4,074 nucleotides of DNA from a virus (taxonomy: Duplodnaviria > Heunggongvirae > Uroviricota > Caudoviricetes). The stretch lies in the IMG/VR virus record IMGVR_UViG_3300029241_000103, positions 1 to 4,074 of that record, one strand, 5' to 3'. Below the pieces are notes generated by a model that did not search any database, was not told the origin of the DNA, and was given only the letters and a program-made list of their open reading frames with translations. Numbering within the stretch: position 1 is the stretch's first letter; each line of letters begins with the position of its first letter. Position numbers and translations under genes: made by a program. Positions 206 through 3,790 of the stretch are shown one piece after another.

Positions 206-742
206 ATGATGCTTACCCTAGACGAGATAGGTCAATCTGTACGTAACAATATCCAGTTGATTATTGATCATGTCGGCTTACCTCTTGCTGTTGGTCCGCT
301 CAGTGATGATGATTACAAGATTCTGTGTGGTGGCTATGGTGAGCTTGAATGGGACTATGCGTTAAGCACCTATGGCAACTCCAGAGAAAAGTATGAGTTC
401 TGCATAAAACTTGTTCAGCAAGGTCGGGTTCAGGGAATACCATCAGGAGCAGCAATTTGTGTTTATGGGGTTGAAGAAAACATCTTTCGTATCCATATGA
501 TCGAAAGGTTTTCTAGAGAAGATGAATCTCACCCATTGAAAGGGCGCATGGTTTTACTCACTCTTATGAGTGCTTTTATATTTTGTAAAGCTGTTGAATG
601 TAAAGTTGTCCACATTGTAGAGCCAGTACCAGAACTGGTGCAGTATTACGAGTCTTTTGGTTTCCGCATGGAACAGTGCGGTTATGTGATGTCTGCAGTC
701 ATTGATGAGCTGCAGGATATCTTTCTTAAATTTGCTCAGTAG
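206..742 (+). CDS. Hypothetical protein, 178 aa, with a GNAT-like C-terminal motif (possible divergent acyl/acetyltransferase fold)
   Basis: Uninterrupted ORF ending at TAG 740-742. A weak SD (GAGAG, 198-202) precedes tandem ATGs at 206 and 209; the spacing favours 209. The segment PELVQYYESFGF resembles GNAT motif B (A-x-x-x-Y-E-x-x-G-F), and the predicted strand/helix order fits a GNAT fold. The glycine-rich motif A (R/Q-x-x-G-x-G/A) is not clearly present (HPLKGRMVLL). Looks AT-richer than the phage genes by eye. Confidence 0.55.
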   Translation: MMLTLDEIGQSVRNNIQLIIDHVGLPLAVGPLSDDDYKILCGGYGELEWDYALSTYGNSREKYEFCIKLVQQGRVQGIPSGAAICVYGVEENIFRIHMIERFSREDESHPLKGRMVLLTLMSAFIFCKAVECKVVHIVEPVPELVQYYESFGFRMEQCGYVMSAVIDELQDIFLKFAQ

Positions 743-938: not shown

Positions 939-1112
939 ATGAAAGATCAAAAAGCAACCAAGCCACAGGTTAAGTTCGACACAATGAAAGCATTCGCAGG
1001 TATGGGTGCTGCTGTTGAAGTTCTGATGAAGGCTGCTCCTAATGCGTTCACTCACGCTACTGTCTCTGGTAAAGAGCAGCAGGGTAAGCTTCGTCGTCGC
1101 AAAGCAGCATGA
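939..1112 (+). CDS. Small hypothetical protein, 57 aa (MKDQKATKPQVKFDTMKAFAGMGAAVEVLMKAAPNAFTHATVSGKEQQGKLRRRKAA), basic C-terminal tail
   Basis: Not in the supplied ORF track (presumably below its length cutoff); translated by hand. ATG at 939 follows SD GGGAG (928-932) with a 6-nt spacer. Stop is TGA at 1110-1112. Codon choice is typical of well-expressed enterobacterial genes (GGT, GCT, CGT, GTT, CTG, AAA, GAA). An intrinsic terminator follows 23 nt downstream. Confidence 0.5.
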   Translation: MKDQKATKPQVKFDTMKAFAGMGAAVEVLMKAAPNAFTHATVSGKEQQGKLRRRKAA

Positions 1113-1131
1113 TCATAGCTGGTGCTTTTTG

Positions 1132-1160
1132 AAAACCCGCCTTTAGGCGGGTTTTTTCTT
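1132..1160. terminator. Rho-independent (intrinsic) terminator, probably bidirectional, between convergent genes
   Basis: Stem CCCGCC (1136-1141), loop TTTA, stem GGCGGG (1146-1151), then TTTTTT (1152-1157) on the plus strand. AAAA (1132-1135) precedes the stem, so the minus strand reads hairpin then TTTTC. The minus-strand gene's stop (TAA, 1160-1162) sits immediately upstream of the hairpin in that orientation. Confidence 0.8.
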
Positions 1161-1441
1161 TAGTGATGTTCTTTGCCCTTCTGTTTGCTTGTTCTGACCT
1201 GTTCCCACTCGATACGTCCTTCTTCTCGTCTTTTGTCTATGTATTCCGCAAGATCCTGAATATTGATGCAACGTTTTGCTTTTTGTGATGTGCCGATGCG
1301 ATATGTTGGAACGGGCAACTTACAAGCGTTTGCTTTTGCTTCTGCCGTGGCTGGACTCATGCCAAAGTACTTTTGGCTAACTGCTGAGAGTTCAATGTTA
1401 GGGGTATTGAATTCAGCCATCAGTAAAAACAAGGTGTTCAT
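1160..1441 (-). CDS. PrtN-family / excisionase-like small DNA-binding protein (about 93 aa)
   Basis: The N-terminus MNTLFLLMAEF... and the segment ...KLPVPTYRIGTSQKAKRCINIQDLAEYID match, from memory, the conserved pattern of PrtN (pyocin activator) / phage Xis-like proteins. Start chosen as ATG at 1441, preceded by GGAG with a 6-nt spacer. The longer GTG-initiated reading to 1468 was not used. Confidence 0.65.
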   Translation of the reverse strand: MNTLFLLMAEFNTPNIELSAVSQKYFGMSPATAEAKANACKLPVPTYRIGTSQKAKRCINIQDLAEYIDKRREEGRIEWEQVRTSKQKGKEHH

Positions 1442-1477
1442 AATTTTCTCCATCAAAACCGGCTGCACCCGGGAAAA

Positions 1478-2050
1478 TCATAATTCTGTGCTGGTGGCAG
1501 GAATTAATTTCTGCCAGATAGCGGAAACATATTTTGCCTGATGACGGGCATCGGCCAGGGCGTTGTGCCGTTCGCCATCGAAAGGCATGTCCATTTTGGG
1601 GTCGAATCCGATGGAACGCCCAAGCGTAACGATCGTGCGTACATCGTGGTCATTCCAGTATGCCCACGGGCAGATTTGTCCTGCTCGCTCATAAGCTCCA
1701 CGTAAAATTACGTTGTCGAAGGTGGCCCCGTTACCCCAGACTTTTAAATATTTCGTATTGGCTGCGTGCCGGTTAATGAAATGATTTAGTTCTGAGAGAG
1801 CATCGCTGATCGACAAAGTATCATCAATACAGATTGCAGCTCGTGCTTCAGGGCTTTGTTTCAACCACCACAGGATGGTATCGCCGTCAGGTGTAGCTCC
1901 TTGCCCCATAGCACTTTCCAGGCTAACAACTGTATAGAATTCTTGTCCGATGTCTCCGGTTTCTGGAGTGAAGAACACCGCGCCAATGGAAACGATCGGT
2001 GCATCCTTATTTTTCCCCATCGTCTCAAGGTCGATCATTAAGTTGTTCAT
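1478..2050 (-). CDS. DEDDh-type (DnaQ-like) 3'-5' exonuclease, phage-encoded, about 190 aa
   Basis: All three Exo motifs can be read: Exo I IDLETMG (D-x-E), Exo II WGNGATFDNVIL (FD), Exo III HNALADARH (H-x-x-x-x-D). Strong SD AGGAGGT lies 6 nt before the ATG at 2050. The ATG overlaps the upstream gene's TGA (minus strand reads TGATG). Confidence 0.85.
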   Translation of the reverse strand: MNNLMIDLETMGKNKDAPIVSIGAVFFTPETGDIGQEFYTVVSLESAMGQGATPDGDTILWWLKQSPEARAAICIDDTLSISDALSELNHFINRHAANTKYLKVWGNGATFDNVILRGAYERAGQICPWAYWNDHDVRTIVTLGRSIGFDPKMDMPFDGERHNALADARHQAKYVSAIWQKLIPATSTEL

Positions 2051-2826
2051 CACTTCACCTCCTGCGGCGGTTCCGGTAGCGGCATCCAGTGAGTTGCTTG
2101 CTCAATACCATTACCCGGCTTAATCGTTGCATCTCCGCGCCGAAAGGTGCTTCCGGTATAGCGTGCGGAGCATATTAGCGGTTCAACCAGAGAGCTATCG
2201 AAATTCACCGAAATAAGCACGTTCTGGCCCTTTTCAGGCATTCGCTCACTACAGCTTATCCAACCATCCGGAGTTACCGGAGAGTTGCCATTTACATCGA
2301 AGTTTGGCTCTGCGTCCTGAACCAGGAGGATGTAACCATTCTTGGCTGTATCAAGTTCTAACGCCTCGGTGACGGTGCCGAAATAGCGATTACCTAAATC
2401 AGCATCACAAGTGCTTACATCAATGGAAACTTCCATGCCTTCGATTAATTCTGGCAAGTTGTAAGTTTGGCTTACAGGTTGGCTACCCTGAAGCATGGCG
2501 GCACGGCAGGCGTTCCAGCCATCAGCATATGTTTCAGTTACACCGTCGAGATGGCAGGTAAGCAAATCCATTTCATCAAGCACTACCAGCGCTGGCGGCG
2601 CGGTGTAAAGCTGGTGCGTTCCATCAGGCAGCGAGTGACCTACATACTCACCGAACCCGTCAACACACATGCACCCATCCTCAATAATGCATGACGCCAC
2701 TGGCTCTGCTTCCAGCGATGCCAGTGCAATTTCATACGACCGGCGCTCAATATTGTCTCGAACGTCCAGGCTGCCTATGCGCTCTTTGATTTCTTTAATC
2801 AGTTCTTTGTCGGTGAAAGTTGTCAT
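2050..2826 (-). CDS. Phage protein with C-terminal DUF551 domain, 258 aa
   Basis: The C-terminal region WISCSERMPEKGQNVLIS...ATHWMPLPEPP matches the DUF551 hallmark (THWMPLPEPP) as I recall it from enterobacterial prophage proteins. ATG at 2826 with SD GAGGA about 7 nt upstream. The acidic, Cys-containing N-terminal 150 aa is unassigned. Confidence 0.75.
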   Translation of the reverse strand: MTTFTDKELIKEIKERIGSLDVRDNIERRSYEIALASLEAEPVASCIIEDGCMCVDGFGEYVGHSLPDGTHQLYTAPPALVVLDEMDLLTCHLDGVTETYADGWNACRAAMLQGSQPVSQTYNLPELIEGMEVSIDVSTCDADLGNRYFGTVTEALELDTAKNGYILLVQDAEPNFDVNGNSPVTPDGWISCSERMPEKGQNVLISVNFDSSLVEPLICSARYTGSTFRRGDATIKPGNGIEQATHWMPLPEPPQEVK

Positions 2827-2829
2827 GTG

Positions 2830-3117
2830 TTAGTCCTCATCCACTTCAACGTCATCTTTCAGCGTGATGCCGTGCCAATCATCAGCCCAACTGGTTAGCC
2901 CTGGCGCATCAATGCTAGGCATATAGACGCTTGCAGTGTGGTAGCCCTTATCGTTATCAATGCTGGCAACGTGCTCGCCGTTGTATGCGCTCAGCGTGTC
3001 CAGGACGCTATAAAACTTTCCTCCGGCTGCCCTGAAATCCTTTACAGCCTTCACAAGGCGATTCCACGCTTTTTCCTGTTCTGGCGTCAGGTCGATTAAT
3101 TCCTGCAAAGTTGCCAT
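2830..3117 (-). CDS. Hypothetical phage protein, 95 aa, strongly acidic C-terminus (…LKDDVEVDED)
   Basis: Start at ATG 3117, preceded by SD AAGGAGAG. It sits 1 nt after the TGA of the upstream gene (minus strand reads TGATATG). The longer track ORF (to 3279) would overlap the Ead/Ea22-like CDS in another frame and was rejected. Confidence 0.7.
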   Translation of the reverse strand: MATLQELIDLTPEQEKAWNRLVKAVKDFRAAGGKFYSVLDTLSAYNGEHVASIDNDKGYHTASVYMPSIDAPGLTSWADDWHGITLKDDVEVDED

Positions 3118-3118
3118 A

Positions 3119-3790
3119 TCACTCTCCTTTGATGCGAATGCCAGCGGCGCGCTCGGCTTCACTTTGTTCCCAAAACCACTTGTGAAGCGCCATAAGCTTT
3201 TCGTCAATCGGTGCATATTTGCGATTAAAGTAGGCCTGAGCATCTTTCTCAGATTCGTCCGGTAATTCGCCAGGGCCAAACAGTGTGTTATAAATCCATG
3301 CCAGTCCGCTTTTAGCGTCGCCAGTTGCCTGCCATTCGATAATGGCAGCCTGCATGACCAGAATGTTTTTCCCGATTAATAGGTCCAGTTCTTTGTACCG
3401 GTTGCGGATGTATGCATTCTCGCTTTGTAATTTTGCGTTGCGCTTCTCTGCGGCTTCCAGCTTGGCTTCTGCATCTTTGGCTCGCATCTGCCAGTTGATA
3501 GCGATGTCGATAACGCTGTTAGCACAACTGGACTCGTTCTCTTCGGCAGCTTTAGCTTCAGAAAGCTCATCAAGCAATCCAAGAACAACAGTTGGCGTGG
3601 CGAGCGTGATAAAACGCATATTGCTCATATGCTCTTCATCGCTAACATCATCGCCAGCCTCGACCGCTGCCATGTGCTGAACATAGCCGCTATCACAGGT
3701 ATTCCAGATTGCCCCTGCCTCGTGACCCCATTCACCATGTAGTGCTTTTTCTGCCGCCTCACGCAGTGCCTGGTAATTAATTTCGCTCAC
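3119..3790 (-). CDS. Ead/Ea22-like family phage protein, 223 aa, with central coiled-coil-like region
   Basis: The N-terminus MSEINYQALREAAEKALHGEW... resembles Ead/Ea22-like proteins of lambdoid prophages (from memory). The central segment EAKAAEE...AKDAEAKLEAAEKRNAKLQSENAYIRNRYKEL looks coiled-coil. Start is GTG at 3790, with a near-perfect SD AAGGAGG 6 nt upstream. GTG overlaps the upstream stop (GTGA). Confidence 0.7.
   Translation of the reverse strand: MSEINYQALREAAEKALHGEWGHEAGAIWNTCDSGYVQHMAAVEAGDDVSDEEHMSNMRFITLATPTVVLGLLDELSEAKAAEENESSCANSVIDIAINWQMRAKDAEAKLEAAEKRNAKLQSENAYIRNRYKELDLLIGKNILVMQAAIIEWQATGDAKSGLAWIYNTLFGPGELPDESEKDAQAYFNRKYAPIDEKLMALHKWFWEQSEAERAAGIRIKGE

What the first reader, a model, noticed from the sequence alone, without database searches (positions are those of the whole stretch)
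2050..2826. DUF551 protein with an unassigned acidic, Cys-containing N-terminal half
DUF551 is widespread in enterobacterial prophages and has no known function. Here it is fused to a roughly 150-aa N-terminal region (…SCIIEDGCMCVDGFGEYVGH…) for which I recognise no motif. Its position immediately upstream of, and start/stop-overlapping with, the exonuclease suggests a functional link.
Basis: partly seen in the sequence, partly recalled or inferred. Interest (0 to 1): 0.35.

Follow-up and report, generated by a model that had tools for sequence, protein, structure and literature searches.

The report
Mosaic DUF551 prophage accessory protein
This is an ordinary, already catalogued accessory gene of an E. 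coli lambdoid prophage: its "mystery" front half is a patchwork of small interchangeable modules that also exist as a separate gene elsewhere, and its closeness to the exonuclease gene reflects gene order in one phage lineage, not a demonstrated partnership.

Summary
The ORF is real: 2050-2826, minus strand, 258 aa. It has a C-terminal DUF551 domain (aa 188-255), an acidic N-terminal region with no assigned domain, and a 1-nt stop/start overlap with an Rv2179c-like 3'-5' exonuclease.

The N-terminal half is not one domain. It is a mosaic of a helical leader, two swappable cassettes and a "mid" module, joined at conserved motifs (ALASLEAEPVA, LYxAPPxxVVPDE, GWNACRAAML, GNSPVTPDGW).

Residues 1-112 occur at 96% identity as a free-standing 116-117 aa ORF in the nin region of other prophages. 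There that ORF is translationally coupled to a separate DUF551 gene. The same module is also found fused to a DUF550 pyrophosphohydrolase domain.

The "Cys cluster" is not conserved. C52 is G, S or E in 40 of 82 copies of the cassette, and the cassette itself is optional.

No sequence or fold search found a characterised domain.

The exonuclease link is lineage-specific synteny. It holds in 57/75 close relatives but only 4/78 diverse DUF551 loci. In 31/78 exonuclease loci a different gene sits upstream, yet it ends in the same ...QEVK* junction that carries the exonuclease's Shine-Dalgarno (SD) site.

The exact protein is already deposited as "DUF551 domain-containing protein". Function remains unknown; I infer a non-enzymatic adaptor role in early phage-host modulation. 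Interest is low.

The parts
2050..2826 (-). Whole ORF, 258 aa, DUF551 domain-containing mosaic protein (stop codon 2050-2052)
   Evidence: ORF list. The exact sequence is present in public data on 9 contigs, named 'DUF551 domain-containing protein [Escherichia coli]'.
2695..2826 (-). Leader module, aa 1-44 (MTTFTDKELIKEIKERIGSLDVRDNIERRSYEIALASLEAEPVA). Predicted helical hairpin ending in junction motif J1, ALASLEAEPVA.
   Evidence: AF2 helices 6-18 and 25-39, pLDDT 71-81 in the N-module model. Matches phrog_3323 over aa 1-47. Found in 1120 of 5426 complete E. coli genomes, including an 86-aa ORF in a P2-like prophage. At least 6 alternative leaders all end in the same motif.
2593..2694 (-). 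Cassette 1, aa 45-78 (SCIIEDGCMCVDGFGEYVGHSLPDGTHQLYTAPP), the Cys/His-containing cassette. Its first and last residues are predicted as paired beta strands. It ends in junction J2, LYxAPPxxVVPDE (here VVLDE).
   Evidence: Strands 44-48 and 69-73. The same cassette is found in about 576 E. coli genomes. In 82 copies C46, C54 and H64 are invariant, H71 is kept in 81/82, and C52 is replaced in 40/82. At least 6 unrelated alternative cassettes exist, and the cassette is absent in P0044 and P0318.
2491..2592 (-). Cassette 2 plus junction helix, aa 79-112 (ALVVLDEMDLLTCHLDGVTETYADGWNACRAAML). Ends in junction J3, GWNACRAAML.
   Evidence: Helix 98-111. At least 5 alternative cassette-2 types precede the same W-N-A-C-R-A-A-M-L motif. 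J3 DNA identity is 0.94 overall and 0.86 at third codon positions, against 0.60 in the flanks. Free-standing N-module ORFs stop 3-5 codons after this motif.
2266..2490 (-). Mid module, aa 113-187 (QGSQPVSQTYNLPELIEGMEVSIDVSTCDADLGNRYFGTVTEALELDTAKNGYILLVQDAEPNFDVNGNSPVTP). Near-invariant, acidic, structure unresolved. Ends in junction J4, GNSPVTPDGW.
   Evidence: 95-100% identical in proteins of 128-434 aa with different N-termini. Separable from DUF551: it is absent in L080 and L083-L085, replaced by another module in L005, and followed by a different C-terminal domain in L179 and L186. AF2 pLDDT is below 35, so the fold is unknown.
2062..2265 (-). DUF551 domain, aa 188-255, small all-beta C-terminal domain
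   Evidence: PF04448 E=4.1e-22. AF2 shows five strands with pLDDT 71-91. Invariant W189, P197, W247 and P254 across divergent members.
2048..2064 (-). Gene junction CAGGAGGTGAAGTGATG: last codons of the ORF (Q-E-V-K-stop) contain the exonuclease SD (AGGAGG, 2058-2063), and the stop overlaps the exonuclease ATG (2048-2050)
   Evidence: Sequence. All 31 non-DUF551 genes found upstream of close exonuclease homologues also end in ...QEVK*.
1478..2050 (-). Neighbouring Rv2179c-like DEDDh 3'-5' exonuclease, 190 aa. Co-transcribed and translationally coupled, but not a demonstrated partner.
   Evidence: PF16473 E=3.7e-75, phrog_255. The exact protein is found on at least 1000 contigs.
2830..3117 (-). 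Upstream 95-aa gene (phrog_2821, unknown function). Its stop lies 3 nt before the DUF551 ATG.
   Evidence: Near-identical to 933W L0066, which likewise precedes the 933W DUF551 gene L0065.

Best explanation
What it is (shown). The ORF is a mosaic accessory gene of the early-left (pL, exo-xis-type) operon of an mEp460/SfV-like lambdoid prophage of E. coli. It has five recombinationally independent pieces: a helical leader (aa 1-44), a beta-hairpin-like variable cassette (45-78), a second variable cassette closed by the GWNACRAAML helix (79-112), a near-invariant acidic mid module (113-187), and the C-terminal DUF551 beta domain (188-255). The pieces are joined at short motifs that are conserved at the DNA level and behave as recombination boundaries. 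This particular allele equals a nin-region-type free-standing N-module ORF (aa 1-112; 95% nt and 96% aa identity) joined in frame, within the GWNACRAAML junction, to the mid+DUF551 part of mEp460 gp27-type genes (97-98% aa identity).

How it works (inferred, not shown). It is non-enzymatic. DUF551 acts as a portable docking domain carried at the C-terminal end of many different N-terminal parts. The acidic three-helix N-module displays variable loops. Together they would act early after infection or induction as an adaptor or modulator of host physiology (replication, stress response, lysis-lysogeny balance), as reported for other exo-xis genes and for the yfdQRST cluster.

Its tie to the exonuclease is operon architecture. 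The overlap and the SD belong to the 5' boundary of the exonuclease gene and are kept whatever gene lies upstream.
For: Context. The window is 97.6% identical over 78% of its length to phage mEp460, with gene order Ead/Ea22-like, small ORFs, DUF551, exonuclease, xis, int, and YfdQ/YfdR homologues further upstream. 933W L0065 is the positional counterpart inside the classical exo-xis region. No promoter or terminator signal above chance lies inside the operon.

Mosaicism. aa 106-258 are 95-98% identical in proteins of 183-433 aa with unrelated N-termini. 80 viral loci carry 55 distinct proteins on the same C-terminal 150 aa. 70 separate 50%-identity clusters carry DUF551 domains at least 77% identical to this one. 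The A1 and A4 alignments show leaders, cassettes and C-termini in many combinations. Junction DNA, including third codon positions, is more conserved than its flanks.

N-module autonomy. Free-standing 116-117 aa ORFs (P0267-P0271) are 96% identical over 100% of aa 1-112. They lie in the nin region and end with an SD and an ATGA overlap into a separate 195-aa DUF551 gene. The module is fused to DUF550/PF04447 in P0281. In UTI89 it is split from DUF551 by an HNH endonuclease gene.

Portable DUF551. The domain is C-terminal (median tail 2 aa) behind extensions of 0-345 aa. Partners among 146 representatives include Ead_Ea22 (7), dATP/dGTP pyrophosphohydrolase (2), lambda P (1) and DUF3850 (1), and none is an exonuclease.

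No catalytic or known domain.

Functional inference from the literature. Exo-xis genes modulate lysogenisation and induction (PMC3824215, PMC10789677). Ea22 proteins are mosaic and have acidic C-terminal domains, and variant V2 carries DUF551 (PMC10834534). The DUF551 protein YfdS contributes to multicopy inhibition of DnaA-dependent initiation, and its loss gives H2O2 sensitivity (PMC4776307).

Exonuclease junction.
Against: No experiment or interaction prediction bears on this protein, so the adaptor role is inference by analogy.

The AF2 model of the whole protein is poor (mean pLDDT 46.6; aa 41-192 below 40) and that of the N-module only moderate (66.1, pTM 0.43), so the loop-display picture is tentative.

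Conservation at third codon positions in the junctions could partly reflect recent common descent rather than selection for recombination sites.

Adjacency to the exonuclease is frequent within the clade (57/75), so a lineage-specific functional cooperation cannot be excluded.

Some dN/dS values for the C part are near 1, on very few substitutions.
Confidence: 0.6

Rival explanations
1. One reading: the DUF551 protein is a functional partner (regulatory or targeting subunit) of the downstream DEDDh exonuclease, and the overlap ensures stoichiometric co-production.
For: There is a 1-nt stop/start overlap and the SD lies inside the DUF551 coding end. 57 of 75 close relatives of this DUF551 variant have the exonuclease immediately downstream. 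47 of 78 close exonuclease homologues have DUF551 immediately upstream.
Against: 31/78 exonuclease loci have something else upstream: 16 carry the same scaffold with a different CxxCxGxG C-terminal domain, 14 carry an unrelated 103-aa membrane-like ORF, and 1 carries a truncated protein. All end in QEVK*. 18/75 close DUF551 relatives are followed by other genes, such as an ASCH-like gene or NinX. Only 4/78 diverse DUF551 loci have an adjacent exonuclease, and only 1 adjacent and 1 nearby among the 59 loci whose DUF551 is under 50% identical. Of 47 distinct downstream ORFs in divergent loci, only 2 are long enough for a DEDDh domain. DUF551 genes also sit in the nin region and at the YfdS position, away from any exonuclease. 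No DUF551-exonuclease fusion occurs among 146 representatives.
Confidence: 0.1
2. Cassette 1 is a small zinc-binding (Cys2His2-like) element, C46-x7-C54-x9-H64-x6-H71, that gives this allele a metal-dependent binding function.
For: C46, C54 and H64 are invariant and H71 is kept in 81/82 copies of the cassette. In the AF2 models C46 and H71 sit on paired antiparallel strands (44-48 with 69-73), and the full-length model adds a hairpin at 52-55. Zinc-binding proteins are known from this phage region: Ea8.5 homologues (Kwan et al. 2013, as cited in PMC7093339). The alternative C-terminal domain in sister alleles has a CxxCxGxG motif.
Against: The cassette is at least 90% identical overall, so invariance of four residues carries little information. 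The spacing matches no known zinc-finger model, and Pfam finds nothing. C52 of the supposed cluster varies freely. The cassette is dispensable and is interchangeable with Cys-free cassettes. pLDDT there is only 52-62.
Confidence: 0.2
3. The protein is an anti-defence or decoy factor (for example an acidic DNA or protein mimic), and its cassettes are shuffled under an arms race with host immunity.
For: It is strongly acidic (pI 4.07 for aa 1-187). It lies in an early-expressed accessory region. Its modules show extreme combinatorial diversity. Both DUF551 and the N-module can be fused to DUF550/MazZ-type pyrophosphohydrolase domains, which PMC10834534 says are implicated in evading restriction.
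Against: There is no similarity to any known anti-defence protein or fold, no defence gene was identified nearby in the window, and no experimental data exist. Mosaicism is general in lambdoid accessory regions and needs no arms race.
Confidence: 0.12
4. The ORF is a functionless recombination by-product, a chance in-frame fusion on its way to decay.
For: This exact combination is rare: 9 contigs, against at least 1000 for the neighbouring exonuclease. No complete E. coli genome among 5426 holds at least 80% of the gene in one place. It carries P83L in the otherwise more than 90% conserved VVPDE junction.
Against: The reading frame is intact with a good SD. dN/dS is 0.22 for the N-module and mostly below 0.6 for the C part. 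Analogous in-frame fusions of N-modules to mid+DUF551 are very common, which argues that fusions are tolerated and maintained.
Confidence: 0.06

Closest known systems
Enterobacteria phage mEp460 gp27 (YP_007112101.1, DUF551 domain-containing protein, 250 aa)
   Same: Same operon position, immediately upstream of and overlapping the exonuclease gp26, followed by xis and int. aa 106-258 are about 97% identical, including the mid module and DUF551.
   Different: The N-terminal roughly 105 aa are unrelated (different leader and a helical 'AVSDERAAYELF...' module instead of the Cys cassette), so overall identity is 67% with gaps.
Free-standing N-module ORFs of lambdoid nin regions (e.g. P0271, NCBI 'hypothetical protein G5G56_001477', 117 aa)
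   Same: 96% identical over all of aa 1-112, with the same leader, Cys cassette, cassette 2 and GWNACRAAML helix. They are followed by a DUF551 gene with the same DUF551 variant.
   Different: They are a separate gene ending ...AAMLKGDKS*, located in the nin region rather than the exo-xis-type region. The DUF551 partner is a separate, translationally coupled ORF with its own N-terminus.
Phage 933W L0065 (AAD25410.1, 'similar to EaA protein of bacteriophage P22', 207 aa)
   Same: Positional counterpart in the classical exo-xis region, preceded by the same 95-aa gene (L0066). It has the same leader and a near-identical DUF551.
   Different: It has a different central region, no mid module and no Cys cassette. 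It ends ...QEVNRG and is followed by an ASCH-like gene (L0064), not an exonuclease.
Ea22 variant V2 of Stx phages (e.g. phi24B) and lambda Ea22
   Same: Early exo-xis-region proteins that are mosaic and have acidic C-terminal parts. V2 carries the DUF551 signature as a portable C-terminal domain, and ea22 has a tested pro-lysogenic phenotype (PMC10834534, PMC7093339). Ead_Ea22+DUF551 fusions were seen here (P0101; 7/146 representatives).
   Different: The ORF studied here has no Ead_Ea22 coiled-coil region. In the window the Ead/Ea22-like protein is a separate gene (3119-3790). No phenotype has been tested for this architecture.
E. coli K-12 CPS-53 YfdS (DUF551 protein of the yfdQRST cluster)
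   Same: A DUF551 protein of a related prophage early operon (YfdQ/YfdR homologues lie upstream in mEp460, MS6198 and UTI89). It is the only DUF551 protein with reported phenotypes (PMC4776307).
   Different: YfdS is a short (about 120 aa) protein at a different operon position. The gene at that position in related prophages matches my DUF551 profile only weakly (E about 1e-6), so it is a distant paralogue. It was not compared directly with K-12 YfdS here.

Membership tests
Pfam DUF551 (PF04448) | Match to the family HMM above the gathering threshold | tested here: met
   79.2 bits against a cut-off of 22, E=4.1e-22, profile positions 1-68 of 68, aa 188-255.
Pfam DUF551 (PF04448) | Conserved W...P ... 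(H)W..LP..P core residues and placement at the C-terminal end of the protein | tested here: met
   W189, P197, W247 and P254 are invariant in an alignment of divergent members. Only 3 residues follow the domain here; the family median tail is 2 aa.
Ead/Ea22-like family (PF13935) | N-terminal segment plus coiled-coil Ead_Ea22 signature | tested here: not met
   No PF13935 hit for this ORF. The neighbouring ORF 3119-3790 has it (E=1e-14).
Obligate two-gene module 'DUF551 + DEDDh exonuclease' | Conserved co-occurrence or adjacency across diverse genomes | tested here: not met
   57/75 in close relatives but 4/78 in diverse DUF551 loci. 31/78 exonuclease genes have a non-DUF551 upstream gene.
Obligate two-gene module 'DUF551 + DEDDh exonuclease' | Physical interaction between the two products | not testable with these tools
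   No multimer prediction or experimental data were available.
Zinc-finger / metal-binding domain (for the Cys cassette) | Match to a known Zn-binding motif or model, with conserved ligand set | tested here: not met
   No Pfam, NCBIfam or PDB hit. C52 is variable in 40/82 copies. A C46/C54/H64/H71 quartet is conserved only within a nearly identical cassette.
Zinc-finger / metal-binding domain (for the Cys cassette) | Stoichiometric metal binding | not testable with these tools
   Needs ICP-MS or a PAR assay on purified protein.
Known anti-phage defence proteins (PADLOC) | Match to a defence-system protein model | tested here: not met
   0 families for this ORF.
PHROG phrog_60 / phrog_5117 / phrog_3323 / phrog_12449 / phrog_924 (all 'unknown function') | HMM match | tested here: met
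   phrog_60 E=2.9e-60 over the whole protein. The others are piecewise hits: aa 1-115, 1-47, 75-127 and 179-257. The piecewise pattern itself reflects the mosaic.

The most novel reading that the evidence does not exclude
The leader/cassette/GWNACRAAML N-module is a dedicated loop-display scaffold. Conserved DNA junctions would let lambdoid and P2-like prophages swap beta-hairpin cassettes combinatorially, producing families of early proteins with different binding specificities. These would be delivered through interchangeable C-terminal docking domains (DUF551, the CxxCxGxG domain, DUF550), making a recombination-driven specificity-diversification system for host takeover or anti-defence.
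Probability: 0.1. Interest if true: 0.6.

Novelty: already known. Interest (0 to 1): 0.15.

Why it matters
It matters little for discovery. The protein is a deposited, annotated member of a very large family (more than 8000 close hits, and 1173 clusters at 50% identity) of uncharacterised prophage accessory proteins, and mosaicism of exo-xis-region genes is already published.

There are three modest gains. First, the "unassigned half" now has an explicit module map, with junction motifs that can guide construct design for anyone studying DUF551 or exo-xis proteins. Second, the stop/start overlap with the exonuclease is shown to be a property of the exonuclease gene's boundary, which is a caution against reading function from overlap in mosaic phage operons. 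Third, conserved C-terminal peptides such as KGE* and QEVK* turn out to be imprints of the next gene's Shine-Dalgarno sequence.

Tried and rejected
1. Sequence searches of the ORF against NCBIfam, PADLOC and PDB chains found nothing beyond DUF551.

2. The AF2 whole-protein model was mostly low confidence. Foldseek against PDB gave no match better than E=1.4. For the N-module model, PDB gave only generic helical-hairpin matches (E of 3.6 or worse), and BFVD gave only uncharacterised phage proteins with low TM-scores.

3. Two attempts to sample DUF551 loci from the species-representative genome collection failed. The first alignment was too divergent for pattern design, and the second pattern gave no confirmed hit. 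I used viral contigs instead.

4. Two giant repeat proteins (P0234, 2088 aa; P0258, 988 aa, with LRR and Flg_new repeats) scored as DUF551 relatives in the exhaustive search. Per-repeat scores are only 2.5-17 bits and Pfam does not call DUF551 in them, so I rejected them as repeat-summed artefacts.

5. I considered internal promoters or terminators that might uncouple the gene from its neighbours. Consensus matches are at or below the shuffled expectation, and none lies on the minus strand within the operon.

6. I considered that the alternative downstream genes might be hidden DEDDh exonucleases. They are NinX, an ASCH-like protein or small proteins, and mostly too short.

7. I did not use the third large homology search. 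A mid-module-only search would have returned near-identical sequences.
Full report
**Observation.** The window is a stretch of an E. coli lambdoid prophage. It is 97.6% identical over 78% of its length to phage mEp460. On the minus strand it carries a tightly packed operon: an 82-aa ORF, an Ead/Ea22-like protein (3119-3790), a 95-aa phrog_2821 protein (2830-3117), the ORF in question (2050-2826, 258 aa), an Rv2179c-like 3'-5' exonuclease (1478-2050) and a PrtN-type excisionase (1160-1468). In mEp460 the same order continues to the integrase, and YfdQ/YfdR homologues lie further upstream.

Pfam finds DUF551 at aa 188-255 (E=4e-22) and nothing else. NCBIfam, PADLOC and PDB chain sequences add nothing. 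The N-terminal 187 aa are acidic (pI 4.07; 34 D+E against 10 K+R) and contain six Cys. The ORF's TGA shares one base with the exonuclease ATG, and an AGGAGG SD lies in its last codons.

**The N-terminal half is a mosaic.** PHROG hits are piecewise: aa 1-47, 1-115, 75-127 and 179-257. A search of 5.8 billion proteins hit the 8000-candidate ceiling. Every listed hit is a DUF551 protein, but no full-length match exceeds 78% identity, while aa 106-258 are 95-98% identical in proteins of 183-433 aa with unrelated N-termini. No complete E. coli genome out of 5426 holds at least 80% of the gene in one place, although 2772 hold parts of it. The leader alone occurs in 1120 genomes and the Cys cassette in about 576.

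Alignments resolve the pieces:
- a leader ending ALASLEAEPVA, with at least 6 types;
- cassette 1 ending LYxAPPxxVVPDE, with at least 6 types, of which the Cys-containing one is here;
- cassette 2 ending GWNACRAAML, with at least 5 types;
- then a stop codon, a mid module plus DUF551, DUF551 directly, or a DUF550 domain.

Many combinations of these occur. P0044 joins the leader directly to the mid module, and P0318 lacks cassette 1. In 80 viral loci the same C-terminal 150 aa carries 55 distinct proteins. The junction motifs are more conserved at the DNA level than their flanks, including at third codon positions (J3 0.86 and J4 0.99, against flanks 0.53-0.68), which fits recombination boundaries.

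**The N-module is an independent unit.** Searching with aa 1-112 alone returned 116-117 aa proteins that are 96% identical over the whole query and have no DUF551 (P0267-P0271). At the DNA level they are 95.2% identical over all 336 nt. These ORFs lie in the nin region of other prophages, after the replication genes and before hok, Fic, DUF968 and RusA. They end ...AAMLKGDKS* with an SD and an ATGA overlap into a separate 195-aa DUF551 gene that carries the same DUF551 variant.

The same module occurs in other settings:
- fused to DUF550/PF04447 (P0281);
- behind an Ead_Ea22 segment (P0355);
- as an 86-aa ORF in a P2-like prophage;
- in UTI89, split from a DUF551 remnant by an HNH endonuclease gene.

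The window allele is therefore most simply a recombinant between a nin-type N-module ORF and an mEp460 gp27-type mid+DUF551 part, with the crossover in the GWNACRAAML junction. Both halves show purifying selection: dN/dS is about 0.22 for the N-module and mostly 0.35-0.6 for the C part, on small counts.

**The Cys cluster.** Among 82 copies of this cassette, C52 is G, S or E in 40. C46, C54 and H64 are invariant and H71 is nearly so. The cassette is at least 90% identical overall, is optional, and is interchangeable with Cys-free cassettes. A C-x7-C-x9-H-x6-H zinc site remains possible: C46 and H71 fall on paired strands in the model. It is not a family feature, and it could not be tested here.

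**Structure.** AF2 on the whole protein gave mean pLDDT 46.6. Only DUF551 (five strands, pLDDT 71-91) and the leader hairpin were reasonably predicted, and aa 41-192 were below 40. The N-module alone, with a more diverse alignment, gave pLDDT 66: helices at 6-18, 25-39 and 98-111, and strands at 44-48 and 69-73 that close cassette 1. Foldseek found no significant PDB match for either model, and only uncharacterised phage proteins in BFVD.

**DUF551 architecture in general.** An exhaustive search of 1.84 billion cluster representatives found 1173 with E of 1e-3 or better. Seventy distinct 50%-identity clusters carry a nearly identical DUF551. The domain is C-terminal (median tail 2 aa) behind 0-345 aa (median 140) of other sequence, and stand-alone 63-77 aa versions exist. 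Of 146 representatives, 143 are Pfam DUF551. Only about 15 have a second Pfam domain: Ead_Ea22 in 7, dATP/dGTP pyrophosphohydrolase in 2, and lambda P and DUF3850 in 1 each. None has an exonuclease domain. Two giant repeat proteins among the hits are artefacts of summed weak repeat scores. An unassigned N-terminal region is thus the rule for this family, not a peculiarity of this gene.

**The exonuclease link.**
- Among close relatives of this DUF551 variant, 57 of 75 loci with enough downstream DNA have the exonuclease adjacent. The other 18 have an ASCH-like gene, NinX, small membrane proteins or others.
- Among 78 diverse DUF551 loci (36-99% identity), only 4 have an adjacent exonuclease and 2 a nearby one. 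Among the 59 whose DUF551 is under 50% identical, there is one of each.
- Of 47 distinct downstream ORFs in divergent loci, only 2 are at least 150 aa.
- In the reverse direction, 47 of 78 close exonuclease homologues have DUF551 upstream. Sixteen have the same modular scaffold with a different CxxC...CxxCxGxG C-terminal domain, 14 have an unrelated 103-aa membrane-like ORF and 1 has a truncated protein. All end in ...QEVK*.

The overlap and SD therefore belong to the 5' boundary of the exonuclease gene and are kept whatever precedes it. DUF551 genes also occur in the nin region and, as a distant paralogue, at the YfdS position of the same operon type, far from any exonuclease.

**Mechanism.** Shown: the gene's position in an early, polycistronic, translationally coupled operon, its modular anatomy, and the absence of any catalytic signature.

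Inferred from named literature: genes of the exo-xis region modulate lysogenisation, induction and host physiology (PMC3824215, PMC10789677). Ea22 proteins are mosaic with acidic C-terminal domains, variant V2 carries DUF551 as a "portable domain", and phi24B ea22 is pro-lysogenic (PMC10834534, PMC7093339). YfdS (DUF551), together with YfdQ and YfdR, inhibits DnaA-dependent initiation when overproduced, and its loss gives H2O2 sensitivity (PMC4776307).

I therefore propose that DUF551 is a docking domain and that the acidic N-module is a variable-loop scaffold, together acting as a non-enzymatic modulator early in infection or induction. This functional part is weakly supported (about 0.3). 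The structural and evolutionary reading is well supported (about 0.85).

**Novelty and verdict.** The exact 258-aa sequence is already public, on 9 contigs, annotated "DUF551 domain-containing protein [Escherichia coli]". The family is huge, and mosaicism of this region is published. The finding is real but ordinary. Its most interesting suggestion, a functional tie to the exonuclease, is not supported. Interest is 0.15.

Noticed in passing
window 3115-3130 and 2048-2064; also L089 2320-2340: Conserved C-terminal peptides of operon genes are imprints of the next gene's Shine-Dalgarno sequence. Ead/Ea22-like ends ...IKGE* = AAAGGAGAGTGAtATG. The DUF551 ORF ends ...QEVK* = CAGGAGGTGAAGTGATG. Free-standing N-module ORFs end KGE*/KGK*/GDKS* over AAGGGAGA. 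This probably explains the 'K/RGE motif of unknown significance' at Ea22 C-termini noted in PMC7093339.
   Followed up: partly
window 3119-3790 (minus strand), aa 112-210: The C-terminal part of the Ead/Ea22-like neighbour matches the PADLOC 'DpdH' model strongly (E=4.8e-37). This suggests that this defence-system model shares a module with prophage Ea22-like proteins, or was built from one.
   Followed up: no
window 206-742 (plus strand): A 178-aa ORF on the opposite strand (phrog_4350, E=2e-103) has no Pfam, NCBIfam or PADLOC hit. It lies between the excisionase end of the operon and the integrase side, as in mEp460 gp23, and is a candidate moron of unknown function.
   Followed up: no
window 1131-1156: A strong GC-rich hairpin (11-bp stem) is flanked by T-runs on the plus strand and A-runs upstream. 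It lies between the convergent 57-aa ORF (939-1112, plus strand) and the excisionase (1160-1468, minus strand), so it is a likely bidirectional intrinsic terminator.
   Followed up: no
L180-L186, L223, L229, L236, L237 (upstream of the exonuclease at about 2190-3000 in those loci): In 16 of 78 exonuclease loci, DUF551 is replaced by a different roughly 80-aa C-terminal domain (...FISCLECFGDDDCDTCDGSGRIEIKVP...) on the same modular scaffold. It has a DnaJ-like CxxC...CxxCxGxG motif and no Pfam match.
   Followed up: partly
L003 3367-4881 (E. coli UTI89 prophage): A free-standing HNH endonuclease gene sits directly after the ...GWNDCREAMLQG junction. It separates a 118-aa N-module ORF from a DUF551 remnant annotated as a pseudogene, which looks like a homing-endonuclease-type insertion at a module junction. 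'DUF551 | HNH endonuclease | exonuclease' neighbourhoods recur in other genomes.
   Followed up: no
L001 6981-7343, L003 3005-3367, L005 1018-1380: The 120-aa gene after yfdR in these operons (the YfdS position) is a distant DUF551 member (...ITHWAVMPKAPE; E about 1e-6 against a small local profile). mEp460-type early operons therefore carry two DUF551 paralogues.
   Followed up: partly
window 2578-2580 (aa 83): This allele has Leu (VVLDE) where more than 90% of relatives have Pro in the VVPDE junction motif. The significance is unknown.
   Followed up: no
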